This document shows, piece by piece, positions 4,901 through 16,866 of a stretch of 64,000 nt of DNA. Origin of the DNA: Zoogloea sp. (GTDB taxonomy: Bacteria; Pseudomonadota; Gammaproteobacteria; Burkholderiales; Rhodocyclaceae); the NCBI RefSeq assembly GCF_009026175.1, contig NZ_WBTZ01000002.1. One strand, written 5' to 3'. The notes under the pieces were generated by a model that was not told the DNA's origin, ran no database searches, and worked only from the letters and a program-made list of their open reading frames with translations. The position numbers and the translations under genes are program-made. Positions within the stretch are counted from its first letter, which is position 1. Every line of letters begins with the position of its first letter.

Positions 4901-6111
4901 TTGACCCAAGTCTTGAACACGCTGCTCGACCTGCCCGGCGGCACGGTTTCACCGGAACCTCCTGAGCAGATCGCCCGGCGCCTCGCCGAACAATTCGCTG
5001 CCACGGCGGCCGAGCGGGATAGCCTGGGCGGAACGCCCAAGGCGGAGCGGGATGCGCTGCGCCAGAGCGGGCTGCTGGCCCTGTCCATTCCAGTCGAGTA
5101 CGGTGGCCTGGGCGCAAACTGGCGCGAGACCCTGGATGTCGTGCGCATCCTGTCCAGCGCAGACAGCTCCATCGGACATGTCTTCGCCTTCCAGCATCTC
5201 ATGTTGGCAACGGTGAGGCTCTTTTCCCGGCCGAGCCAGTGGGAAGCCTGGTTCGAGCAGACGGCCCGCCACAACTGGTTCTGGGGGAATGCCGTCAATC
5301 CGCTGGACCGTCGCACCGTCAGCCGGAGCCAGGACGGCTGGTACGAGTTTTCCGGGAAGAAGAGCTTCTGCTCCGGTGCGCTCGATTCAGAGATGCTGGT
5401 TGTTTCAGCCTATGCCCAGGACACGCCGCAACAGCTCGTCATCGCCGCGGTGCCGACCGCCCGCAGCGGCATCAACGTGTTGCAGGACTGGGACAATTTC
5501 GGCCAGCGGCAGACCGACAGTGGCAGCGTGAATTTCGAAAGGGTGCGCATCGAGGAGAAGGAGATCCTCGCCGATCCGGGACCGCTGAGCACGCCCTTTG
5601 CCTGCCTGCGCCCGCTCATTGCGCAGCTCATCCTCACCAACATCTACGCCGGCATTGCCGAGGGTGCCTACACGGAGGCCCGTCGCTACAGCCTCCATGA
5701 GGCACGGCCCTGGCATCGCTCCCCGGCCAAGCGTTTCGAGGACGACCCCTATGTGCTGCATCACTACGGAGAGTTCTGGGCGGCGCTCGACGCGGTGCGG
5801 GTGATGACCAACCGGGCGGCGGACCTGCTTGACGCGGGCTGGAACAAGGGAGGGCGCCTGACCGAGGACGAGCGGGGAGACATTGCGCTGGCGATCTCCT
5901 CGGCCAAGGTGCTGGCGACGCGGACAGGGATGGACCTCTGTACGCGCATGTTCGAGGTGACGGGCGCACGTGCCACCCATGCCGGGCTGGGGCTCGACCG
6001 CTATTGGCGCAATCTGCGCACGCACACCATGCACGACCCGATCGATTACAAACTTCTGGAGCTAGGTGAATGGGCCTTGAAGCAACACTACCCGAAGCCG
6101 ACTTTCTACTC

Positions 6112-6115
<4 letters not shown>
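4901..6115 (+). CDS. Acyl-CoA dehydrogenase-fold flavin-dependent monooxygenase (DszC/SfnA-like), paralog of 3276-4484
   Basis: [33 protein letters not shown] and [14 protein letters not shown] motifs; TTG start at 4901 after GGAG, since the ORF-track start lies upstream of the promoter. Confidence 0.88.
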
Positions 6116-7272
<1,157 letters not shown>

Positions 7273-7324: not shown

Positions 7325-7948
7325 ATGGTGACGCTATCCAGCCCCGCGCAATCCCGCCTTCCCGATCCTGGCGCGGCCCTCGCCGCCTACCGGGACGGAG
7401 CGGTGACCGTGCTTGCATCCGATCCGCTGCGTCCGGGCAGCGCCTGCCTGCTCGCTGCCCTGGAAACCCTGCGGCCTGAAACCCTGAGCCAGTTGCGGAG
7501 CCTGACCCGTGGGCTGATCAGCGTACTGCTGCCTGATCGTCAGAGGTATGGCGTCCGGCTCTTCCTGTCCTGTGAGGGCCAGGCGGCGGATCTCTCCAGC
7601 CATTCCGGCGCGGAGCCCGGCGTGGGCAGCAATGCCGCCCTGTGTCCTCTCCTGCATGGGCTTGTCTGCAATCCCTGCGAGGCGGAACGCCAGGCAGCAG
7701 CCTTCGGTGATCCCTTTGTCACCCTGAGTGGCGCCGGCACCCTGAGCTGGCCGGATAGCGAACGTGTGGTGAGTACGCTCGCCGTCCGCTTCGCTCTGGC
7801 CGACGCAGCCCTGATCTGTTCGCTGCACGATTCCCGGGGGCGCTGTCTCCACGGCGACGAAGTGAGTGAATTCGCAGCCGCCCACGGCCTCCCTCTTCTC
7901 TACCCTGACGATGTCCTCCGCGGTGTGCGCCTGCACGCAGCAGGGTAA
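7325..7948 (+). CDS. RibB (DHBP synthase)-fold protein lacking catalytic residues; probable pseudoenzyme
   Basis: Colinear with RibB 2578-3261 (ALAAYRDGAVTVL ~ AIAAIRAGQFVIV; ALICSLHDSRG...FAAAHGLPLL ~ VLCEIVRDDG...FAREHALPII), but RENEGD, GHTE and CE are absent; uninterrupted 207-aa ORF. Confidence 0.65.
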   Translation: MVTLSSPAQSRLPDPGAALAAYRDGAVTVLASDPLRPGSACLLAALETLRPETLSQLRSLTRGLISVLLPDRQRYGVRLFLSCEGQAADLSSHSGAEPGVGSNAALCPLLHGLVCNPCEAERQAAAFGDPFVTLSGAGTLSWPDSERVVSTLAVRFALADAALICSLHDSRGRCLHGDEVSEFAAAHGLPLLYPDDVLRGVRLHAAG

Positions 7949-8060: not shown

Positions 8061-8076
8061 TGCTGCCTCAAAAGCA
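8061..8076. promoter_or_regulatory. TGCT-N8-AGCA site
   Basis: TGCTGCCTCAAAAGCA, 80 bp upstream of the sigma54 promoter. Confidence 0.65.
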
Positions 8077-8156
8077 CTTGTCCAGCATGGGTGTGTCTGG
8101 GCCCGCAACAAGCACCGGATTCAGCAATATACAAAAGGGGATTTTGGCGAAAATCC

Positions 8157-8172
8157 TGGCCCGCTTTATGCT
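8157..8172 (+). promoter_or_regulatory. Sigma54 promoter for ABC operon 1
   Basis: TGGCCCGCTTTATGCT with correct GG/GC spacing. Confidence 0.7.
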
Positions 8173-8298
8173 TATTGAAGCTGAAGGGGTTCGGTAAATG
8201 AATTCCAGAATAGAAAGTCCGGAATGAAATGAAATTTCGAAAATGGAATTTCGAATAAGGATTTTCGTTTCGTTGCATATGAACAGGAATTGCCAAGA

Positions 8299-9450
8299 AT
8301 GCACACCTTGAACAAGGCCCTTTCCTCCAGCAATAGCCCCGACACGCTGCCGGCCCATTTGTGCGAGCAGGCGCGACTGCAGCCCCGGACTGTCGCCCTG
8401 CGCTTCAAACGGCTGGGCATCTGGCACGAGAAGCGCTGGCCGGATCTGCTCGCCGAGGTGGCAGGCGCAGCCGCGGCGCTGCAGACCGACGGTTTCGGCA
8501 ATGGAGACGTGCTGGCCTTGCTTGGCCAGCCCTCGCCCGAGGCCGTGGTCATGTTGCTGGCCGCCCAATGGCTGGGAGGTGTCGTTGCCCCCCTCGCTCT
8601 GGATGCCGAACCCGAGGCCCTGGCGTCGGCGCTCATCGGACTGCGGCCCTGCATCGCCTTTGGCGACGACCAGGAGCAGGTGGATCGCCTGCTGGCGGCG
8701 GGCTTCTCCGGCAAGAGGCTGATCTATGCCGATGCCCGCGGCCTGCATGCCTACCGGCAGACGGTGTTGGCCAGTTACGGTGAGTGGCTGGCAGCTGCGC
8801 CCGACGGGTCTGCGTACCCACACTGCGTGGCCCGGGATGTTGCGCTGCGCTACCACGTCGCAGGTGGGTGGGACGACGGGCCGGTGTGCCGCATCACCCA
8901 CGCCGAGATCCTGGACGGCGCCCGCCGGCTGATCGCGGCAAGCGGGCTGAACGTCGGTGAGGAGGCTTTCGCCGGGAGGCGTTTTGCGCCGGCGGGCGTG
9001 GTTCGCTACCTGCTCGCCCCCTGGTTGCTTGCAGGCTTCACCCTCAATATCGCCGAAAGCCCGGAGAGCCGCGATCCGGATCGACGGGAGATCGGCCCGA
9101 GCCTGATCCTCGGATCGGCCGAGACCTACGCCCGGCTGCGCAGCCGGATCCAGGCCCGTCTGCCGGCTTCCCGGGACGGTTGGCGCGGACGCCTGGTGTC
9201 TGCGGCGCTCCACTCCCGGAGTGGGCTTTTGGCGCGCATCCTGGTGCGGCGCCCCCTGGCCGAGGTGGCCGGGCTGGGCCGGGTGCGTCACGCCCTGGTG
9301 GTCGGCCCGGCGCCGGATGCCGACCTGACCGAGTTCTTTGCCCGTCTGGGCGTGAGCCTGAGACGCTGGCCGGACGCGGCCTGCCTGCCGCAGAACAGGC
9401 CGCCCGAGCATGATCTGGCCAGCCTCCTGAACGTATGGGTGGCGCCATGA
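8299..9450 (+). CDS. Truncated, degenerate long-chain acyl-CoA ligase-like (AMP-binding fold) protein
   Basis: N-terminus VALRFKRLGIWHEKRW and ESPESRDPDRREIGP are typical of ABC-associated ligases; the P-loop region reads YHVAGGWDDG instead of YTSGTTGxPKG; ends where the YGxTE motif should be; 383 aa. Confidence 0.75.
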   Translation: MHTLNKALSSSNSPDTLPAHLCEQARLQPRTVALRFKRLGIWHEKRWPDLLAEVAGAAAALQTDGFGNGDVLALLGQPSPEAVVMLLAAQWLGGVVAPLALDAEPEALASALIGLRPCIAFGDDQEQVDRLLAAGFSGKRLIYADARGLHAYRQTVLASYGEWLAAAPDGSAYPHCVARDVALRYHVAGGWDDGPVCRITHAEILDGARRLIAASGLNVGEEAFAGRRFAPAGVVRYLLAPWLLAGFTLNIAESPESRDPDRREIGPSLILGSAETYARLRSRIQARLPASRDGWRGRLVSAALHSRSGLLARILVRRPLAEVAGLGRVRHALVVGPAPDADLTEFFARLGVSLRRWPDAACLPQNRPPEHDLASLLNVWVAP

Positions 9451-10229
9451 GTGCGTTATCCGCCTCAGCACTATTGCTGGCGGTCGAACACGTGTCCCTG
9501 TCCTTTGGCGGCGTCAAGGCGGTCACCGACATCTCCTTCTCGGTCCCGCGTGGCGAGATCTGCGCCCTGATCGGCCCCAATGGTGCCGGCAAGAGCTCCC
9601 TGCTCAATGTGATCAACGGGGTCTATCGGCCGCAGGGCGGGCGCGTGGTGTACGACGGCCTGGTGACCTCCCGATCGGCCCCTCGCCAGGCAGCCCTCGG
9701 AGGCATCGCGCGAACCTTCCAGAACGTGGCCTTGTTCAAGGGCATGAGCGTGCTCGACAACGTGCTGACCGGCCGCAACGTGCGGGTCGGGGCGGGTTGG
9801 ATCGAGCAGGTGCTGGGCCTGCCCCGCGCCCGCGCCGAGGCGGATCTGCATCGGCACAGGGCCGAGGAAATCCTGGCCTTCCTGCACATCCAGGCGCATC
9901 GCGACACACCTGTCGGCAAGCTGCCCTACGGTCTGCAGAAGCGTGTCGAACTGGCCCGGGCCATCGCCTCAGAGCCACAACTGCTCCTCCTCGACGAGCC
10001 GATGGCCGGCATGAACCTCGAGGAGAAGATGGACATGAGCTGCTTCATCCTCGACATCAACCGCGACCTGGGGACCACGGTGGTCCTCATCGAGCACGAC
10101 CTGGGCGTGGTGATGGACATTTCAGACCACGTGGTGGTGCTCGATTACGGCCGCAAGATCGCCGACGGCCCGCCGGCCCGGGTACGCGACGATCCGCAGG
10201 TCATCGCCGCCTACATCGGCGCCCACTGA
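9447..10229 (+). CDS. LIV-type ABC transporter ATPase (LivG-like)
   Basis: GPNGAGKS, LPYGLQKRVELARA and LLDEP motifs; ATGA overlap with the upstream gene. Confidence 0.93.
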   Translation: MSALSASALLLAVEHVSLSFGGVKAVTDISFSVPRGEICALIGPNGAGKSSLLNVINGVYRPQGGRVVYDGLVTSRSAPRQAALGGIARTFQNVALFKGMSVLDNVLTGRNVRVGAGWIEQVLGLPRARAEADLHRHRAEEILAFLHIQAHRDTPVGKLPYGLQKRVELARAIASEPQLLLLDEPMAGMNLEEKMDMSCFILDINRDLGTTVVLIEHDLGVVMDISDHVVVLDYGRKIADGPPARVRDDPQVIAAYIGAH

Positions 10230-10245: not shown

Positions 10246-11127
10246 ATGGATTTTTTTCTCGAAGTGCTGATCGGCGGCCTCCTGGCCGGGATCATGTATT
10301 CAATGGTGGCGATCGGCTTTGTACTGATCTATAAGGCCTCGGGGGTGTTCAATTTCGCCCAGGGGTCGATGGTGCTGTTTGCCGCCCTGACCTTCGTCAG
10401 CCTTGTGGAGCGGGGCTTCGCCTTCTGGAGTGCCTTCGCCACCACCCTCGGGGCAATGCTGGCCCTCGCCTGGGCGATCGAGCGTGGGGTCTTGCGCCCC
10501 CTCGTCAATCGGCCGCCCATCACGCTCTTCATGGCGACCCTGGGGGTCAGCTTCATCATCGAAGGCCTGGCTCAGCTCCTGTGGGGTGCCCAGGTGCACG
10601 GCCTCGAACTGGGCATCAAGGATGAGCCCATCGATCTTGGCGGCATTCTGCTGTCCCGCTTCGATCTCTTCGCGGCCGGCATAGCCGCGCTGCTGGTGCT
10701 GGCCTTGTCCCTGCTGTTCTCGCGGACCCGCATCGGCCTGTCCCTGCGTTCGGTCGCCAGCGACCCCTTGGCTGCGCTGGCCACGGGTATCCGCGTGCAG
10801 CGCATCTGGGCCGTGGTCTGGGCAGTTGCCGGCTTTGTCGGGCTGATCGCCGGACTGCTCTGGGGCGCCCGTCTCGGAGTCCAGTTCTCACTTTCCCTGG
10901 TCGTCCTGAAGGCCTTGCCGGTGCTGATCATCGGCGGCTTCTCGTCGATCGGCGGCGCCATCGTCGGCGGGCTGATCGTCGGCGCCGGGGAGAAGCTGGC
11001 CGAGGTGTATGCCGGCCCGGTGATCGGCGATGGCCTCGAGAACTGGTTTCCCTATGTGCTCGCGCTGCTTTTCCTGCTGGTACGTCCTGCGGGCCTGTTC
11101 GGCCAGCGCACCATCGAGAGGGTCTGA
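10246..11127 (+). CDS. LIV-type ABC permease (LivH-like)
   Basis: GFVLIYKASGVFNFAQG; hydrophobic multi-TM protein. Confidence 0.92.
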   Translation: MDFFLEVLIGGLLAGIMYSMVAIGFVLIYKASGVFNFAQGSMVLFAALTFVSLVERGFAFWSAFATTLGAMLALAWAIERGVLRPLVNRPPITLFMATLGVSFIIEGLAQLLWGAQVHGLELGIKDEPIDLGGILLSRFDLFAAGIAALLVLALSLLFSRTRIGLSLRSVASDPLAALATGIRVQRIWAVVWAVAGFVGLIAGLLWGARLGVQFSLSLVVLKALPVLIIGGFSSIGGAIVGGLIVGAGEKLAEVYAGPVIGDGLENWFPYVLALLFLLVRPAGLFGQRTIERV

Positions 11128-11129
11128 TC

Positions 11130-12197
11130 ATGCTTTTATCCGAGACCGGGCAGTTCAGCACGTGCTATGCCCATGACCGCCGTGCCTTCCGCCTCCGCCA
11201 GGAGCGTGTCGGCCTGGGCCTGGTGCTGGCCTTTGCCTTCCTGGTAGTGCCTGCCTGGGCCAGCGACTACTGGTTCAGCGCCATCCTGATTCCCTTCCTG
11301 ATCCTGTCCCTGGCAGGTCTGGGGCTCAATCTGCTGACCGGCTATGCGGGGCAGTTGTCCCTGGGGAGCGCCGCCTTCATGGCGGTGGGCGCCTTTGCGG
11401 CCTATAACTTCCAGCTGCGGATCGAGGGCCTCCCCTTCTTGGTCAGCCTCGCCCTGGGCGGACTTGTGGCAGCGCTGGCCGGCGTGGTGTTCGGCCTGCC
11501 GAGCCTGCGCATCAAGGGCTTCTACCTGATCGTCTCGACCCTCGCCGCCCAGTTCCTGGTGCAGTGGGGGCTGACCAAGTTCGGCTGGTTTTCCAACTTC
11601 AATCCTTCGGGCGTGATCACCGCACCTCCGCTGACGATACTCGGGCAGGACCTGTCCTCTCCGGCGGGGCGCTATCTGCTCACGCTGCTGGTGGTGACCG
11701 CCCTCTTCTTCCTGGCCGGCCGCATCGTGCGCTCGGACCTGGGCCGCAACTGGATGGCCGTGCGTGACATGGATTCCGCCGCGGCGGTGATCGGCATCCC
11801 GGTTGCCCGCAGCAAGCTCCTGGCCTTTGCGGTGAGTTCCTTCTACTGCGGCGTGGCCGGCTCCCTGTGGGCCTTCACTTACCTGGGCACCGTCGAGCCC
11901 CATGGCTTCGATCTGAATCGTTCATTCCAGGTGCTCTTCATCATCATCATCGGGGGCATGGGCAGCATCCTCGGTAACTTCCTCGGCGCCGCCTTCATCG
12001 TCTTGCTGCCCCTGTTGCTGAGCAACCTGGGCGGCTCGCTGCTCGCCGGAGTGATCGACCAGGGGCACATCGAGAACCTCCAGAAGATCCTTTTCGGGCT
12101 GTTGATCATCCTCTTCCTGATCCGCGAGCCCGATGGGCTGGCGAGTCTGTGGCGCAGCCTGCGGGCCCGCGCCCGAGTGTGGCCCTTGCGCGCCTGA
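11130..12197 (+). CDS. LIV-type ABC permease (LivM-like)
   Basis: LGLNLLTGYAGQLSLG, LRIKGFYL and IIIIGGMGS motifs. Confidence 0.92.
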   Translation: MLLSETGQFSTCYAHDRRAFRLRQERVGLGLVLAFAFLVVPAWASDYWFSAILIPFLILSLAGLGLNLLTGYAGQLSLGSAAFMAVGAFAAYNFQLRIEGLPFLVSLALGGLVAALAGVVFGLPSLRIKGFYLIVSTLAAQFLVQWGLTKFGWFSNFNPSGVITAPPLTILGQDLSSPAGRYLLTLLVVTALFFLAGRIVRSDLGRNWMAVRDMDSAAAVIGIPVARSKLLAFAVSSFYCGVAGSLWAFTYLGTVEPHGFDLNRSFQVLFIIIIGGMGSILGNFLGAAFIVLLPLLLSNLGGSLLAGVIDQGHIENLQKILFGLLIILFLIREPDGLASLWRSLRARARVWPLRA

Positions 12198-12305: not shown

Positions 12306-13643
12306 ATGACCACATCGCGCTTTTCCCCGCGCCGCCTGACGGCCGCTTTCAGCCTCGGCCTTGCGCTTGTCAGCGGCAGCGCCACAGCCGCCGGCGAGCA
12401 GTATTTTCCCCTGCAAAGCTACCGGGTCGGCCCCTACGCAGCCGGCGGCACCGGCTTCTTCGGTGGTTTCATCGACTACATGCAGCTCGTCAATGCCCGT
12501 GATGGCGGGGTCAATGGCGTCAAGCTCACCTGGTCCGAATGCGAGACCGAGTATGTCGTCGAAAAGGGGGTTGAATGCTACGAGCGCCTGAAGAAGGGGC
12601 TCAACGGTGCGCCGGCAGCCGCCACCAACCCGCTCAGCGTCGGCATCGCCTACGCAACCCTGGAACGCTCCACCGCCGACCGGATTCCGCTGATCACCAT
12701 CAACCACGGGCGCACCGACTCGACCGACGGCAGCGTCTTCCCCTACGTCTTCCCCTTGCAGCTCAATCCCTACAGCGAGGTGTCGGCGATCGTCAATTAC
12801 ATCGGCCAGCGGGAAGGTGGTCTCGACAAGCTGAAGGGCAAGAAGATCGTGACGCTCTATCACGGGTCGCCCTACGGCAAGGAAACCATCCCCATCCTGG
12901 ACATCCTGTCGAAGAAATACGGTTTCGCCATCAGTCACATCGAAGTTCCCCACCCGGGCACCGAGCAGCAATCCCAGTGGCTCAACATCCGCCGCATCAA
13001 GCCTGACTGGGTGATTCTGCGGGGTTGGGGGGTGATGAACCCGGTGGCGCTGAAGACCGCCGCGAAGACCGGCTTTCCGGCCGACCATGTGATCGGCAAC
13101 ATCTGGAGCAACTCCGAAGACGACGCCGCACCTGCGGGCGATGCCGCCAAGGGCTTCATCTCCATCACCACCCACCCGGCCGGCACGGATTTCCCGGTGC
13201 TCAAGGACATCGAGAAGGTGGTGGTCAAGGCCGGCAAGGGCAATCTCCAGGATCCCAAGCGCTTCGGCAGTGTCTATTACAACCTGGGCGTGGTGAACGG
13301 CATCCTCAACGTCGAGGCGCTACGGATTGCCCAAGCCAAGTTCGGCAAACGGCCGCTCAGTGGTGAGGAAGTACGCTGGGGCTTCGAGCATCTCAAGCTT
13401 GATGCCAAACGCCTGCAGGATCTCGGCGCGACCGGCCTGGTCCAGACCCTCACGCTCTCCTGCTCCGATCACGAGGGCGGTGGTGCCGTGCGCTTTCAGC
13501 AATGGGATGGAGCCAGCTGGAAGGTGATCAGCGACTGGGTGCAGGCAGACCGCGGCCTGCTGCGTCCGATCATCGAGAAATCCGCTGCGGCCTACGCCAA
13601 GGAAAAGGGCATCACCCCGCGCAACTGCGCCAAGGAGAGCTGA
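12306..13643 (+). CDS. LIV-type ABC substrate-binding protein (PBP1 family)
   Basis: Signal peptide ending ATA-A; YRVGPYAAGG...DGGVNGVKL..ECETEY; start set at ATG 12306 after GGAG. Confidence 0.9.
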   Translation: MTTSRFSPRRLTAAFSLGLALVSGSATAAGEQYFPLQSYRVGPYAAGGTGFFGGFIDYMQLVNARDGGVNGVKLTWSECETEYVVEKGVECYERLKKGLNGAPAAATNPLSVGIAYATLERSTADRIPLITINHGRTDSTDGSVFPYVFPLQLNPYSEVSAIVNYIGQREGGLDKLKGKKIVTLYHGSPYGKETIPILDILSKKYGFAISHIEVPHPGTEQQSQWLNIRRIKPDWVILRGWGVMNPVALKTAAKTGFPADHVIGNIWSNSEDDAAPAGDAAKGFISITTHPAGTDFPVLKDIEKVVVKAGKGNLQDPKRFGSVYYNLGVVNGILNVEALRIAQAKFGKRPLSGEEVRWGFEHLKLDAKRLQDLGATGLVQTLTLSCSDHEGGGAVRFQQWDGASWKVISDWVQADRGLLRPIIEKSAAAYAKEKGITPRNCAKES

Positions 13644-13702: not shown

Positions 13703-14509
13703 ATGACGACTTCCTCCATCCTCCGAGTCGATAACATCCACGTGATCTACGACCAGGTGATCCTCGGCGCCCGCGGCATCAGCCTTGAGCTGCCGGAGGG
13801 ACGCATCCATGCCCTGCTCGGCGCCAATGGCGCCGGCAAGACGACGACGCTCAAGGCCATCTCGGGTCTGATCAGGGCCGAGCGTGGCGAAGTGACCTGC
13901 GGCAGCATCCATTTTGCCGGTCATGATGTGCTCAAGAGTGATCCGGCGGCACTGGTGAGCCAGGGGCTGGTGCAGGTCCTGGAGGGGCGCCATTGCTTCG
14001 CCGAGCTTGATGTGGACGAGAACCTGCGGGTCGGCGCCTTTGTGCGCACCCCCTCCCGCGCTGATCTGCGCCGGGGGCTGGAACGCATCTACACCTACTT
14101 TCCGCGCCTCGCCGAGCGACGCCGGAGTCGCGCCGGTTATCTGTCGGGCGGTGAGCAGCAGATGCTGGCCATCGGACGTGCGTTGATCGCCTCCCCCCGC
14201 CTGGTCCTGCTCGACGAACCGTCCATGGGGCTTGCCCCGCAGATCGTCATCGAGATCTTCGAGATCGTGCGCCGCCTCAACCATGAGGAAGGAGTGAGCT
14301 TCCTGCTCGCGGAACAGAATGCGGCGATCGCCCTTCGCTATTCGGATCACGCCCATATCCTGGAGAACGGCCGCATCGCGGGTAGCGGTCCTTCCGCCGA
14401 ACTGGCCGAGCGGGACGATGTACGGGCTTCCTATCTGGGAATCGGCGCCGAGGGCCGCCGCAGTTTTCGTGAAGCCAGGCATTACCATAGCCGCCGCCGC
14501 GAACATTGA
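13703..14509 (+). CDS. LIV-type ABC ATPase (LivF-like)
   Basis: GANGAGKT, LSGGEQQMLAIGRAL and LDEPSMGLAP motifs. Confidence 0.92.
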   Translation: MTTSSILRVDNIHVIYDQVILGARGISLELPEGRIHALLGANGAGKTTTLKAISGLIRAERGEVTCGSIHFAGHDVLKSDPAALVSQGLVQVLEGRHCFAELDVDENLRVGAFVRTPSRADLRRGLERIYTYFPRLAERRRSRAGYLSGGEQQMLAIGRALIASPRLVLLDEPSMGLAPQIVIEIFEIVRRLNHEEGVSFLLAEQNAAIALRYSDHAHILENGRIAGSGPSAELAERDDVRASYLGIGAEGRRSFREARHYHSRRREH

Positions 14510-14739: not shown

Positions 14740-14755
14740 TGGCACGCGAACTGCT
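14740..14755 (+). promoter_or_regulatory. Sigma54 promoter for porin-ABC operon 2
   Basis: TGGCACGCGAACTGCT. Confidence 0.85.
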
Positions 14756-14792
14756 AATAGGAGGTGCCAACAACCGTAATGGAAATCCAAAA

Positions 14793-15920
14793 ATGAAAAA
14801 TACCAACGTCCTTGCCCTGCTTCTTGTTGCAGCGAGCACGTCCGTCCTGGCGCAGAGCAATGTCACCATTTTCGGCACCGTCGACATGGGCTACCGCTGG
14901 AGCGACAGGAACGTCGATCCCCGCATCGGCAGCCAGTCACGCACCGACTCGGGAACCAGCGTGCCCAGCCGGCTTGGTTTCCAGGGGATCGAGGACATCG
15001 GCAATGGGCTCAAGGCCAGCTTCATCCTTGAAGCCGCCATCGATACCTCCACCGGTGAATTGCCGGGTGGGGGTGGATTCAGCCGCCAGGCCTTTGTTGC
15101 CTTGGGGGGCGCGTTCGGGAAGGTGGCACTGGGGCGGCAATACACGCCCGGCTACTTATTCACTTCCGAGGTCGATCCTTTTGGTAGCGTCACTGTCGGT
15201 CAATATAACAATGTGTACCTGACCGAATACCGCTGGAACAATCAGATCACTTATTTCTCTCCCGAGAAGGAAGGCCTCTCCTTCTCTGCGGCTTATTCCC
15301 TGAACGGCTACGGGCAGGAGTCCATCGGTAATCGGGGCAATGGCACGACCGGCGATGTGGAGGCGCTATCGGTGCAGCCTCAGTACCGCAAGGGTCCGCT
15401 TCTGGTGGGCGCGCACTTTCAGGAATTGCGCTCGCGCAGCACGGGCCGGGACGATGCCGGCAATGTGCTGACGGCCACTTACGACGGCAAGAAGATCAGG
15501 GCCTACGACGTGGGTGCGACCTACGACCTCGGCGTTGCGAAGCTGGCTGCGCTATACGGCATCCGTCGCTCCGACAGCGCCGATTTCAGCCCCGACACGG
15601 GTGCCAGCACGGTCAAGGACAGCCGCCAGTGGTTGCTCGGCGCGACCTTGCCGCTTGGGGCAGATGGCAAGCTGCTTGCCTCTTACGTGCGCCGCAGCAG
15701 CGAGCTTGCGTCCGGCCACGGCGATGCCAAGGCTGGTCAGTGGGCGCTCGGCTACGAACATGCCTTGTCCAGACGCACGGTTCTCTACACCACCTACGCC
15801 AGCGTCAATAACAACGGGGTGGGCCGTGATGCGGGCTTCGTGAGTTCTGTTGGTGCGGGGTACAACCCAGGCAATGGCTACCAACGCAGTGCTGCGGTCG
15901 GCATCCGTCATTCCTTCTGA
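14793..15920 (+). CDS. Gram-negative (betaproteobacterial) trimeric porin
   Basis: Signal peptide VLA-Q; SNVTIFGTVD, SRLGFQGIEDIGNGLKASFILE and YEHALSRRT motifs; C-terminal GIRHSF. Confidence 0.9.
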   Translation: MKNTNVLALLLVAASTSVLAQSNVTIFGTVDMGYRWSDRNVDPRIGSQSRTDSGTSVPSRLGFQGIEDIGNGLKASFILEAAIDTSTGELPGGGGFSRQAFVALGGAFGKVALGRQYTPGYLFTSEVDPFGSVTVGQYNNVYLTEYRWNNQITYFSPEKEGLSFSAAYSLNGYGQESIGNRGNGTTGDVEALSVQPQYRKGPLLVGAHFQELRSRSTGRDDAGNVLTATYDGKKIRAYDVGATYDLGVAKLAALYGIRRSDSADFSPDTGASTVKDSRQWLLGATLPLGADGKLLASYVRRSSELASGHGDAKAGQWALGYEHALSRRTVLYTTYASVNNNGVGRDAGFVSSVGAGYNPGNGYQRSAAVGIRHSF

Positions 15921-15939: not shown

Positions 15940-16866
15940 ATGAACCAGCGACTGCCTGTGGCGAGCGATCCAGTGGGCCACCTCGATACCTGGGCAGCGG
16001 CGCGTCCCGGAGCCCTGGCACTGCTGCACAAGCGTCGGGGGCGCTGGATGGCCTGGCGTTGGGCGGACGTCCGTCGCGAAGTGGCCGAGCTGAGCGCCGC
16101 CCTCGCCGCCCGTGGCTTCGGTCCGGGTGAGCGGCTGGCCTTGGCGGGCCCGTTCGAGCCCACCCTGGTCCTGCTGGCGCTGGGCGCCCGGAACGCCGGC
16201 GGCGAGGTGGTAGCGGTTTCTCCGGACCTGTCCGGCCAGGCCCTGCTCGATGGCCTCTCTGCAGCGGGCGCGCACCATCTCTTCGTGGCCAGCCGCGACG
16301 GGGCAAGCCGTGCCATTGCGGCCTATGCAGGCGCCCGGGCAGCACCGCGCCTGTACCTGCGCGAAGCGCCGGCGCAGCGCAGCGCCGGCTTGTCCGTGAC
16401 CCCGATCGCGGAACTGTTCGGAGAGCCCCGCCCCATGCCGGAACGTATCGAATGGGATCGGCTGCGCAGCAGCCGCAGTGCGTGGGTCGAGGAAGGCAGT
16501 GAATGGGCTGAGGGGCTCGGCCTGATCCTCGAGCGCCTCCTCACCCACGGGCAAGCCTTCGCTTTTCCTGAAAATGCGGAATCCGCGTCTCGCGACCGGT
16601 GCGACATCGCCCCCGTCATGCTGCTGCTGTCGGCGGCCCGGGCCGGTGCGCTTCACGACAAACTCGACCAGCGCCTGGCCCCCTCTGGCAGCCTGGGCCG
16701 CCGCCTGTGGGACTGGGCCCAGCGTCATGCCGGACGGCCCGGAGCCCATCGGCATCTGCGCTCCCATGTACGCCGGATTGCCGGCTTGCATCGGGTGCGC
16801 GCAGTCGAGCCCGCTGCGCTTGTCGCCTCGGCATGGCTGGGCACAGGCCGGGAGGAGCTGCCATGA
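15940..16866 (+). CDS. Second truncated, degenerate acyl-CoA ligase-like protein
   Basis: LALLHKRRGRWMAWRWADVRREVAELSAAL N-terminus and FAFPENAESASRDRCDIAP; no recognisable P-loop; 308 aa; ATGA overlap with the ATPase gene. Confidence 0.7.
   Translation: MNQRLPVASDPVGHLDTWAAARPGALALLHKRRGRWMAWRWADVRREVAELSAALAARGFGPGERLALAGPFEPTLVLLALGARNAGGEVVAVSPDLSGQALLDGLSAAGAHHLFVASRDGASRAIAAYAGARAAPRLYLREAPAQRSAGLSVTPIAELFGEPRPMPERIEWDRLRSSRSAWVEEGSEWAEGLGLILERLLTHGQAFAFPENAESASRDRCDIAPVMLLLSAARAGALHDKLDQRLAPSGSLGRRLWDWAQRHAGRPGAHRHLRSHVRRIAGLHRVRAVEPAALVASAWLGTGREELP

What the first reader, a model, noticed from the sequence alone, without database searches (positions are those of the whole stretch)
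8299..9450. Truncated pseudo-ligase translationally coupled to an ABC importer (operon 1)
Known: LIV-type importers of this family are often co-encoded with a full-length (~650 aa) long-chain acyl-CoA ligase that traps the substrate. Seen: the ligase homolog here is 383 aa, its P-loop is unrecognisable (YHVAGGWDDG), it ends where the YGxTE motif should be, and it lacks the C-domain with the catalytic Lys. Yet it is an intact first gene with an ATGA overlap to the ATPase. Inference: a non-catalytic accessory subunit (cytoplasmic ligand-binding, regulatory or scaffold) of an ABC transporter retargeted to organosulfur compounds, potentially an undescribed transporter component.
Basis: partly seen in the sequence, partly recalled or inferred. 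Interest (0 to 1): 0.75.

Follow-up and report, generated by a model that had tools for sequence, protein, structure and literature searches.

The report
Dead half-ligase subunit of ABC importer
The gene encodes a conserved, catalytically dead front half of an acyl-CoA ligase that always sits just ahead of the ATPase gene of one kind of nutrient importer and in some bacteria is fused to that ATPase, so it is most likely an uncharacterised extra subunit of the transporter, not a decaying gene.

Summary
Window 8299-9450(+) is an intact 383-aa ORF whose stop overlaps the LivG start (ATGA, 9447-9450). It is homologous to the N-terminal body of ANL acyl-CoA ligases. It has no P-loop (YHVAGGWDDG aligns with YTSGTTGKPKG of a full-length paralog). 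Its folded part ends where the YGxTE motif (A5) would be. A7, A8, A10 and the whole C-domain are absent.

It is not decay. Relatives were found in 138 species genomes. In all 83 loci examined the ORF is intact (351 to about 420 aa) and lies directly before LivG-LivH-LivM-SBP-LivF. 99 of 383 positions are at least 90% conserved, and dN/dS is 0.20-0.25.

The same genome carries a 658-aa, motif-intact ligase heading a paralogous operon. Its transporter parts are 61-63% identical to those of operon 1, while the ligases are 28% identical. New evidence: natural short-ANL::LivG fusion proteins exist, as do full-length ligase::LivG fusions. This supports physical association with the ATPase.

The link to sulphur clusters is strong but not exclusive (70 of 83 loci). 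The actual role (scaffold, ligand hand-off or regulator) is unresolved. I found no paper that describes the family.

The parts
8061..8076 (+). TGCT-N8-AGCA inverted repeat (TGCTGCCTCAAAAGCA), a candidate enhancer site for the sigma-54 activator encoded at 6070-7272
   Evidence: Read directly. The motif was proposed by another first-stage note. Its function was not tested.
8157..8172 (+). Sigma-54 type -24/-12 promoter-like element TGGCCCGCTTTATGCT, about 125 nt upstream of the ATG
   Evidence: 7 matches to TGGCNCN6TGCW in the window against 2.7 expected. Others lie before the SfnB/DszC-like gene (4847) and the porin gene (14740).
8299..9450 (+). Short ANL-like protein (383 aa): N-terminal body of an acyl-CoA ligase, no P-loop, no A5, no C-domain; disordered tail 363-383
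9447..9450 (+). ATGA start/stop overlap between the short ANL gene and livG
   Evidence: The same 4-nt overlap appears in the gene calls of relatives L001, L003, L095 and L096.
9447..10229 (+). LivG-type ABC ATPase (260 aa), the predicted partner of the short ANL protein
   Evidence: It is 62-65% identical to the LivG of the two other ANL-headed operons of this genome, against 44% or less to other LivG paralogs. It is fused to the ANL module in P0200-P0204 and others.
10246..11127 (+). LivH-type permease
11130..12197 (+). LivM-type permease
12306..13643 (+). Periplasmic solute-binding protein (Peripla_BP_6), ligand unknown
   Evidence: E 3.8e-174 to PDB 4ru0, deposited as a putative branched-chain amino acid binding protein. 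61% identical to the SBP of the operon headed by the intact ligase.
13703..14509 (+). LivF-type ABC ATPase
15940..16866 (+). Second, shorter paralog (308 aa) heading operon 2. It matches the family profile in two pieces (positions 8-142 and 198-339), so the P-loop region is deleted
   Evidence: A 55%-identical ortholog over 303 aa sits at the same downstream position in L005.

Best explanation
The 383-aa protein is a non-catalytic derivative of the acyl-CoA ligase that normally heads one subfamily of LIV-type (HAAT) ABC importer operons. It most likely works as a cytoplasmic accessory subunit bound to the LivG ATPase.

Shown:
- It keeps the alpha/beta body of the ANL N-terminal domain up to the strand before motif A5.
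- It has lost every nucleotide-binding and catalytic motif and the mobile C-domain.
- It is conserved in length and sequence across Beta- and Gammaproteobacteria under purifying selection.
- It is always encoded immediately before LivG.
- In several lineages the same truncated module is covalently fused to LivG, as is the full-length catalytic ligase in others.

Inferred:
- In the ancestral system the ligase docks on LivG and thioesterifies the carboxylate as it leaves the permease (vectorial acylation).
- In the sfn-linked transporters the cargo goes to FMNH2-dependent monooxygenases instead of CoA activation. Adenylation became useless and was lost.
- The part of the ligase built into the transporter complex was retained, for assembly or stability of LivG, for coupling, or for receiving the substrate.
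- The short-specific invariant Arg/Asp/Trp residues (R227, R236, W242, R258, D259, R262, R279, W357) replace hydrophobic residues of the long forms. They may cover surfaces exposed by the truncation or form a new polar binding site.
For: Loss of catalysis: P-loop and A5 replaced; the protein ends before A7, A8 and A10; ANL N-domain fold only.

Not decay:
- All 49 database clusters are 336-478 aa.
- Relatives were found in 138 species genomes. All 83 loci examined carry an intact ORF.
- 99 of 383 positions are at least 90% conserved over 82 orthologs.
- dN/dS is 0.20-0.25, against 0.03-0.12 for LivG, LivH and LivM.

Link to the transporter:
- LivG follows at about -20 to +35 nt in 83 of 83 loci. 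The full LivG/H/M/SBP/F set is present in 80 of 83.
- The 4-nt ATGA overlap is seen here and in relatives.

Origin:
- The same genome has a motif-intact 658-aa ligase heading a paralogous operon. Its LivG, LivH, LivM and SBP are 61-63% identical to those of operon 1.
- In 151 genomes of the order, the long form is in about 53 and the short form in 4.

Physical association:
- 39 of the 120 listed clusters carry both AMP-binding and ABC_tran domains. Motif-less short fusions are P0200-P0204, P0216, P0221 and P0266. Motif-intact long fusions are P0205 (958 aa) and P0206 (903 aa).
- The P0200 fusion gene is followed by LivH, LivM, SBP and LivF.
- Residues shared at 82-100% by short and long forms but outside the ANL catalytic motifs (R35, K37, G40, W42, W47, E253, T257, D261, R263, E264, P267) are candidates for the common interface.
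Against: No direct evidence of binding exists for the unfused pair.

The AlphaFold2 model of the fusion P0202 gives confident domains but pTM of only 0.66 and a disordered linker. No PAE or coordinates were available, so no interface could be read.

The protein evolves 2-5 times faster than the core transporter genes. That fits a loosely constrained accessory, but also a soluble protein with a role of its own.

Gene order and fusion show functional linkage and co-localisation, not what the module does.

The substrate is unknown, so the 'no longer a carboxylate' step is conjecture. The SBP is still 61% identical to that of the ligase-positive operon.
Confidence: 0.68

Rival explanations
1. It is a soluble cytoplasmic ligand-binding protein. 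The retained acyl-pocket half of the ligase, with new invariant arginines, captures the imported organosulphur compound and hands it to the SfnG, DszA/DmoA-like or DszC/SfnB-like oxygenases. It is co-expressed with the transporter but does not need to dock on it.
For: Short-specific invariant R227 and R236 lie in the A4 region, which lines the acyl pocket in ANL enzymes (established knowledge; residues). 70 of 83 loci sit among FMN-dependent sulphur-scavenging genes.
Against: The same invariant residues are kept in the 13 Pseudomonas loci that have no sulphur genes nearby. Fusion to LivG in several lineages argues for action at the transporter. No ligand is known.
Confidence: 0.15
2. It is a regulatory module on the ATPase that senses a cytoplasmic metabolite and throttles transport. 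It would be functionally analogous to the C-terminal regulatory domains of MalK, MetN or ModC.
For: Extra cytoplasmic domains on ABC ATPases commonly mediate trans-inhibition (established knowledge). The same LivG subfamily also occurs with a different, unrelated ~130-aa N-terminal extension (P0243 and about 50 similar clusters). This suggests that the N-terminus of this LivG is a site where accessory modules are attached.
Against: No nucleotide-, CoA- or effector-binding motif is recognisable. The catalytic long forms occupy the same position, so the primary ancestral role was enzymatic, not regulatory.
Confidence: 0.1
3. It is a functionless remnant kept only because its 3' end carries the ribosome-binding site and coupling signal for livG.
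For: The ATGA overlap means livG translation may depend on upstream translation. The protein evolves faster than its neighbours.
Against: A spacer ORF would not keep 99 positions at 90% or more identity across 82 species, including many charged and aromatic residues far from the 3' end. It would not show dN/dS of 0.2 over the whole length or fold confidently. It would not be retained as an in-frame fusion domain.
Confidence: 0.04
4. It is half of a split ligase, completed in trans by a separately encoded C-terminal half.
For: None specific. Split ANL enzymes are conceivable.
Against: The P-loop and A5 lie within the retained half and are destroyed. No orphan C-terminal half lies in the operon. 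Most tblastn hits of the paralog's C-terminal part fall on contigs that also carry ANL N-terminal hits; the rest were not checked.
Confidence: 0.03

Closest known systems
Full-length 'long-chain acyl-CoA ligases' that head ANL-LivG-LivH-LivM-SBP-LivF operons (COG1022/FadD11-like; here the 658-aa paralog P0198)
   Same: Same operon position. Homologous over residues 1-356 (28% identity). They share clade-specific residues (RxKxxGxW...W; PE..T..D.RE.GP). The partner transporter is of the same subfamily (61-63% identity).
   Different: The long forms keep TSGTTGxPKG, YGxTE, TGD, the hinge and the C-domain (AMP-binding_C_3). The short form has none of these. To my knowledge, and in the papers I searched, even the long forms of this operon type have not been studied biochemically.
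ANL superfamily N-terminal domains of solved ligases (M. tuberculosis FadD5 8r2q/8r2r, T. thermophilus LC-FACS 1v25/1v26/1ult, feruloyl-CoA synthetase 8wev, Acs 2p2f)
   Same: Same fold. Foldseek probability 1.00, TM 0.60-0.68 over about 350 aligned columns. FadD5 is likewise encoded with a lipid importer (the mce1 operon; abstract of bioRxiv 10.1101/2024.10.29.620959).
   Different: 12-20% identity. Those proteins are active enzymes with full motifs and a C-domain. 8r2r is an engineered N-domain construct, not a natural truncation.
Vectorial acylation systems (E. coli FadL/FadD, eukaryotic FATP/ACSL)
   Same: The concept of coupling import to activation by an acyl-CoA synthetase at the membrane. 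This is the presumed ancestral logic of the ANL-headed LIV operons and of the ligase::LivG fusions.
   Different: Here the activating chemistry is gone, and the transporter is a binding-protein-dependent ABC importer.
Accessory or regulatory domains on ABC importer ATPases (MalK, MetN C2, ModC, OpuA CBS domains)
   Same: An extra cytoplasmic module attached to, or here encoded next to and sometimes fused with, the nucleotide-binding subunit.
   Different: Unrelated folds. Those are small C-terminal domains with known effector binding. This is a 350-aa N-terminal or separate ANL-derived module with an unknown ligand.

Membership tests
ANL superfamily adenylate-forming enzymes (acyl-CoA synthetases) | N-terminal alpha/beta domain fold | tested here: met
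   AF2 model with pLDDT 84.3. Foldseek top hits are ANL N-domains, TM 0.60-0.68. Pfam PF00501 matches residues 23-130.
ANL superfamily adenylate-forming enzymes (acyl-CoA synthetases) | Motif A3, P-loop (T/S)(S/G)G(T/S)TGxPKG | tested here: not met
   YHVAGGWDDG aligns with YTSGTTGKPKG of P0198. No short relative in the main clade has the motif.
ANL superfamily adenylate-forming enzymes (acyl-CoA synthetases) | Motif A5, YGxTE | tested here: not met
   The position is occupied by RRWPD (W357 is conserved). The chain then becomes disordered and ends.
ANL superfamily adenylate-forming enzymes (acyl-CoA synthetases) | Motifs A7 (TGD), A8 hinge, A10 Lys and the mobile C-terminal domain | tested here: not met
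   The protein ends at the equivalent of residue ~390-410 of the 658-aa paralog. These motifs lie at 457-602 of the paralog.
ANL superfamily adenylate-forming enzymes (acyl-CoA synthetases) | Adenylation / thioester-forming activity | not testable with these tools
   Needs ATP-PPi exchange or AMP-formation assays.
ABC-importer-associated ANL clade (first gene of ANL-LivG-H-M-SBP-F operons) | Encoded immediately upstream of LivG of a LIV-type importer | tested here: met
   83 of 83 loci; also this window.
ABC-importer-associated ANL clade (first gene of ANL-LivG-H-M-SBP-F operons) | Closest full-length relatives are the ligases of that operon type and share clade-specific non-catalytic residues | tested here: met
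   The family profile hits 590-660-aa proteins from about E 1e-66 over their first ~380 residues. The genome's own paralog is one of them. Shared residues are listed.
Subunit of a HAAT-family (TC 3.A.1.4) ABC importer complex | Physical association with the transporter (LivG) | tested here: inconclusive
   Indirect support comes from natural ANL::LivG fusions. The AF2 model of one fusion does not resolve an interface (pTM 0.66). No biochemical data.
Sulphate-starvation / SfnR regulon | Sigma-54 promoter and neighbourhood of sfn/msu-type genes | tested here: inconclusive
   In the window: a -24/-12 element at 8157-8172. An SfnR-like activator, SfnG, MsuE and two SfnB/DszC-like genes lie upstream of the operon (within about 8 kb); an NtaA/DmoA-like monooxygenase follows operon 2, about 12.6 kb downstream of the gene. 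Across the family, 70 of 83 loci but not all. Expression was not testable.

The most novel reading that the evidence does not exclude
The N-terminal body of the ligase may be an integral sixth component of a whole subfamily of LIV-type ABC importers. It would dock on LivG and be required for transport itself, for example by forming the cytoplasmic exit site or by controlling the ATPase cycle, independently of adenylation. Catalytic, motif-eroded full-length, truncated and fused versions would then all be variants of one structural subunit. The 'acyl-CoA ligases' of these very common operons would have a transport function that nobody has looked for.
Probability: 0.3. Interest if true: 0.8.

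Novelty: new variant of a known kind. Interest (0 to 1): 0.62.

Why it matters
ANL-headed LIV operons are common: about a third of 151 sampled genomes of this order have one. [quoted passage not shown]

Three observations make a concrete idea testable: that these importers work as a complex with a ligase-derived cytoplasmic subunit.
- A dead, truncated version of the ligase is conserved in at least 138 species.
- Full-length relatives with eroded motifs exist.
- Both dead and live versions occur fused to LivG.

The family would be a clean natural case of an enzyme turned into a transporter subunit (a pseudoenzyme). It would correct a widespread misannotation. It also points to an uncharacterised uptake route for organosulphur compounds in the sfn regulon.

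Tried and rejected
- Literature: six searches (one malformed) found no study of this protein or of the ligase-LivG pairing. They found only annotation tables (PMC13541209) and general SBP screening in R. palustris (PMC3223731).
- Interface prediction: only a single chain could be folded. The natural fusion P0202 gave good domains but pTM 0.66 and no PAE or coordinates, so nothing could be said about contacts.
- Mapping conserved residues onto the model was not possible, because coordinates are not exposed.
- Split-enzyme idea: rejected, because the motifs inside the retained half are destroyed.
- A C-terminal docking peptide: many tails carry PAQW and a late GW(I/V/L), but this is subfamily-specific and not universal. 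Dropped.
- Plasmid search: only chromid or megaplasmid copies at 40% identity or less. Uninformative.
- Monophyly of short forms: 101 short representatives form one clade, but with weak support (0.50) and midpoint rooting. Other short clades and scattered short sequences exist, and some may be contig-end fragments. I therefore claim only 'old and probably recurrent', not a number of events.
- One MAFFT run timed out and was repeated with faster settings.

Full report
**1. What is in the sequence**

Window 8299-9450 on the + strand is an uninterrupted 383-codon ORF.
- The ATG at 8299 is preceded by AGGAA at a workable distance. The TTG nine bases upstream is not.
- Close homologs also start at this Met and are exactly 383 aa long.
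- The gene ends ...GCGCC-ATGA-GT. The ATG of the next gene (9447) overlaps the TGA stop.
- Third-position GC is 0.83, like the neighbouring transporter genes. The 467-aa ORF on the opposite strand has 0.70 and is a high-GC artefact.
- A sigma-54 type -24/-12 element (TGGCCCGCTTTATGCT) lies at 8157-8172. Similar elements precede the SfnB/DszC-like gene and the porin gene.

**2. Gene neighbourhood**

- Downstream: LivG, LivH, LivM, a Peripla_BP_6 binding protein and LivF. Then a porin and a second operon of the same order, headed by a 308-aa paralog.
- Upstream: SfnG (dimethylsulfone monooxygenase, 642 bits against a cut-off of 383), the FMN reductase MsuE, RibB, two SfnB/DszC-like flavoenzymes, a sigma-54 activator of the SfnR type and a RibB-like protein.
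- After operon 2: an NtaA/DmoA-family monooxygenase.
- The setting is therefore a sulphate-starvation, organosulphur-scavenging cluster.

**3. Homology and what is missing**

- Pfam AMP-binding matches only residues 23-130 (E 9e-13). NCBIfam ligase models match the same stretch, far below their cut-offs.
- The same genome has a 658-aa paralog, P0198. It carries YTSGTTGKPKG, LYGQTE, FMTGDAG, IIDRAKD and TRTRKVRR, plus an AMP-binding_C_3 domain.
- BLASTP aligns residues 1-356 of the short protein with 3-388 of P0198 (28% identity, E 6e-33). YHVAGGWDDG falls on the P-loop, and the alignment stops just before LYGQTE.
- The short protein therefore lacks A3 and A5 by substitution. It lacks A7, A8, A10 and the C-domain by truncation.
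- AlphaFold2 gives a confident model (pLDDT 84.3, pTM 0.84) for residues 12-362 and a disordered tail. Foldseek places it among ANL N-terminal domains (TM 0.60-0.68; FadD5, feruloyl-CoA synthetase, Acs, T. thermophilus LC-FACS).
- With no nucleotide-binding motif left, adenylation can be excluded as far as sequence allows.

**4. Not a decaying gene**

- A word-indexed search of 5.8 billion proteins found 49 clusters, all 336-478 aa.
- An exhaustive profile search found 503 representatives at E 1e-30 or better. The top hits are all 350-430 aa.
- A scan of one genome per species found relatives in 138 genomes: Zoogloea, Methylophilaceae, Methylococcaceae, many Pseudomonas, Azotobacter, Chitiniphilus, Cupriavidus and Comamonadaceae.
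- In all 83 loci in hand the ORF is intact. After choosing starts by alignment it is 351-421 aa long.
- Over 82 orthologs, 99 of 383 positions are at least 90% conserved, including many charged and aromatic residues.
- Against three relatives of 72-90% identity, dN/dS is 0.20-0.25. This is clearly purifying selection, but 2-5 times more relaxed than LivG (0.08-0.12) and LivH/LivM (0.03-0.12) in the same loci.

**5. Link to the transporter**

- In 83 of 83 loci a LivG homolog starts at about -20 to +35 nt from the stop. 80 of 83 loci contain the full LivG/H/M/SBP/F set; the other three are cut by contig ends.
- Gene calls in L001, L003, L095 and L096 show the same 4-nt overlap.
- Within this genome, the three ANL-headed operons (two short, one long) have transporter parts 55-72% identical to each other. 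Identity to any other LIV system is only 25-44%.
- This is therefore a distinct importer subfamily whose first gene is always ANL-derived.
- Among 151 evenly sampled genomes of the order, about 53 carry the long form and 4 the short form. The long form is the common state and the short form is patchy.

**6. Fusions (new evidence)**

I searched with the short protein and LivG joined end to end. Of the 120 listed clusters, 39 carry both PF00501 and PF00005.
- Some cover 95-98% of the joined query with no ligase motifs left: P0200 (641 aa, Methyloversatilis thermotolerans), P0201, P0202, P0203, P0221 and P0266. P0204 and P0216 are also motif-less fusions, but their best local alignment covers only 66% and 39% of the query.
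- One keeps a near-P-loop and HGSTE but is cut right after them (P0207, 710 aa).
- Others are complete, motif-intact ligases fused to LivG (P0205, 958 aa; P0206, 903 aa).
- A Xanthobacter group of about 748 aa is motif-less.
- Three have the reverse order, with the Walker A motif at residue 37 (P0264, P0282, P0293).
- The P0200 fusion gene is followed by LivH, LivM, SBP and LivF on its contig. P0202 follows a luciferase-like monooxygenase gene.
- In the aligned short fusions (P0200-P0203, P0221, P0266) the ligase part ends at the same structural boundary as the window protein. A 40-70-residue low-complexity linker takes the place of its disordered tail.

Fusion in several lineages and in both orders is classical Rosetta-stone evidence. 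It indicates that the ligase body and LivG act together physically, and that the catalytic half can be lost while the attachment stays.

**7. Graded erosion**

- Among the 44 full-length representatives closest to the short family, some have canonical motifs.
- Others have clearly destroyed ones. Examples are P0109 (SFDASGRPRA, A10 Lys lost), P0114 (Asp of TGD lost), and P0126, P0138 and P0196.
- The sample is biased towards P-loop-less sequences, because the query profile lacks a P-loop. Even so, their existence suggests that loss of catalysis can precede truncation.
- In a FastTree of 182 sequences, 101 short representatives form one clade (support 0.50, midpoint root). Further short clades and scattered short sequences lie among the long ones. 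The truncation is old and probably recurrent, but I cannot count the events.

**8. Sulphur link**

- 70 of 83 loci have an SfnB/DszC-like, luciferase-like monooxygenase or FMN reductase gene within 9 kb.
- The 13 exceptions are all Pseudomonas, mostly with a 351-366-aa version. L043 shows an Asp/Glu racemase-like gene upstream and no sulphur genes.
- All the invariant residues are kept there too.
- The family is therefore enriched in sulphur clusters but not confined to them.

**9. Residue patterns**

- Shared by short and long forms at 82-100% and outside the ANL core motifs: R35, K37, G40, W42, W47, E253, T257, D261, R263, E264 and P267.
- Short-specific and nearly invariant: R227, R236, W242, R258, D259, R262, R279 and W357. 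In long forms the commonest residue at each of these positions is uncharged and mostly hydrophobic (L, L, A, V, L, L, A, T), though several of the positions are variable there.
- My reading is inference. The first set is a candidate for the common docking surface. The second set either covers surfaces exposed by loss of the rest of the enzyme or forms a new polar site.

**10. Mechanism and rivals**

- Most likely (0.68): a non-catalytic, LivG-associated accessory subunit descended from a transporter-tethered ligase.
- The particular job is open. It could be assembly or stability, coupling, substrate reception or regulation.
- Soluble ligand hand-off protein: 0.15. Regulatory module: 0.10.
- 'Mere spacer for translational coupling' (0.04) and 'split enzyme' (0.03) are disfavoured by the conservation and the motif data.
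- The AF2 model of fusion P0202 has two confident domains and a disordered linker. Its pTM of 0.66 neither shows nor excludes a fixed interface.

**11. Comparison with what is known**

- Databases name these proteins 'AMP-binding protein' or 'long-chain fatty acid--CoA ligase'.
- I found no functional study of the short form, of the long form in this operon type, or of the fusions. The library searched is incomplete.
- By membership, the protein is a homolog of ANL enzymes that fails every catalytic criterion, and a member of the ABC-associated ANL clade.
- By function, it resembles accessory domains on ABC ATPases, and it is a pseudoenzyme.

**12. Verdict**

- The claim of exclusivity to sulphur operons is not supported.
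- Novelty: a new variant of a known kind. Interest: 0.62.

Noticed in passing
P0243, P0218 and about 50 similar clusters of 389-393 aa: LivG proteins 62-66% identical to the window's LivG carry a different N-terminal extension of about 130 aa (MIDWTHSERITFHDAIATMEVDFSG...). It has no Pfam match. P0273 has yet another extension. The N-terminus of this LivG subfamily seems to be a place where accessory domains are added.
   Followed up: partly
P0264, P0282, P0293 (about 915 aa): Fusions in the reverse order: the Walker A motif sits at residue 37, i.e. LivG first and the ANL part with an AMP-binding_C_3 domain behind it.
   Followed up: no
P0109, P0114, P0126, P0138, P0196 (590-650 aa): Full-length relatives of the operon-heading ligase in which the P-loop, A5, A7 or the A10 lysine are individually destroyed. 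These are possible full-length pseudo-ligases.
   Followed up: partly
window 7325-7948 (+); L095 855-1496, L096 717-1343, L097 726-1352: The RibB-like ORF between the sigma-54 activator and the short ANL gene is conserved at the same position in three relatives. Its dN/dS is 0.13-0.21, so it too is under purifying selection. In Zoogloea the corresponding gene is a 405-aa RibB/GTP cyclohydrolase II protein.
   Followed up: partly
window 12306-13643 (+): The binding protein is a very close relative (E 3.8e-174) of PDB entry 4ru0, deposited as a putative branched-chain amino acid binding protein. A structure is therefore at hand for ligand-pocket analysis.
   Followed up: no
window 14740-14755 (+) and 14790-15920 (+): The porin gene between the two operons has its own -24/-12 element (TGGCACGCGAACTGCT). 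Operon 2 starts only about 20 nt after the porin stop, so porin and operon 2 may be one transcript.
   Followed up: no
L043 8115-8885 (+) and 12 other Pseudomonas loci (L038, L048, L049, L053, L059, L062, L065, L067, L070, L072, L073, L077): A Pseudomonas subgroup of the family (mostly 351-366 aa) lies outside sulphur clusters. In L043 it is preceded by an Asp/Glu/hydantoin racemase-like gene. The cargo of this transporter variant is probably different.
   Followed up: partly
window 8068-9471 (-): A 467-aa ORF runs antisense to the whole gene. Its GC3 is 0.70, against 0.83 for the sense frame, and all the homology evidence is for the sense frame. I read it as a high-GC artefact.
   Followed up: yes
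L005 14227-15132 (+); L046 6-440; L028 18883-19071: Orthologs of the 308-aa operon-2 paralog (55% identity over 303 aa in L005) lie downstream of the first operon in other genomes. The twin-operon arrangement and the further shortened form are therefore also conserved.
   Followed up: partly
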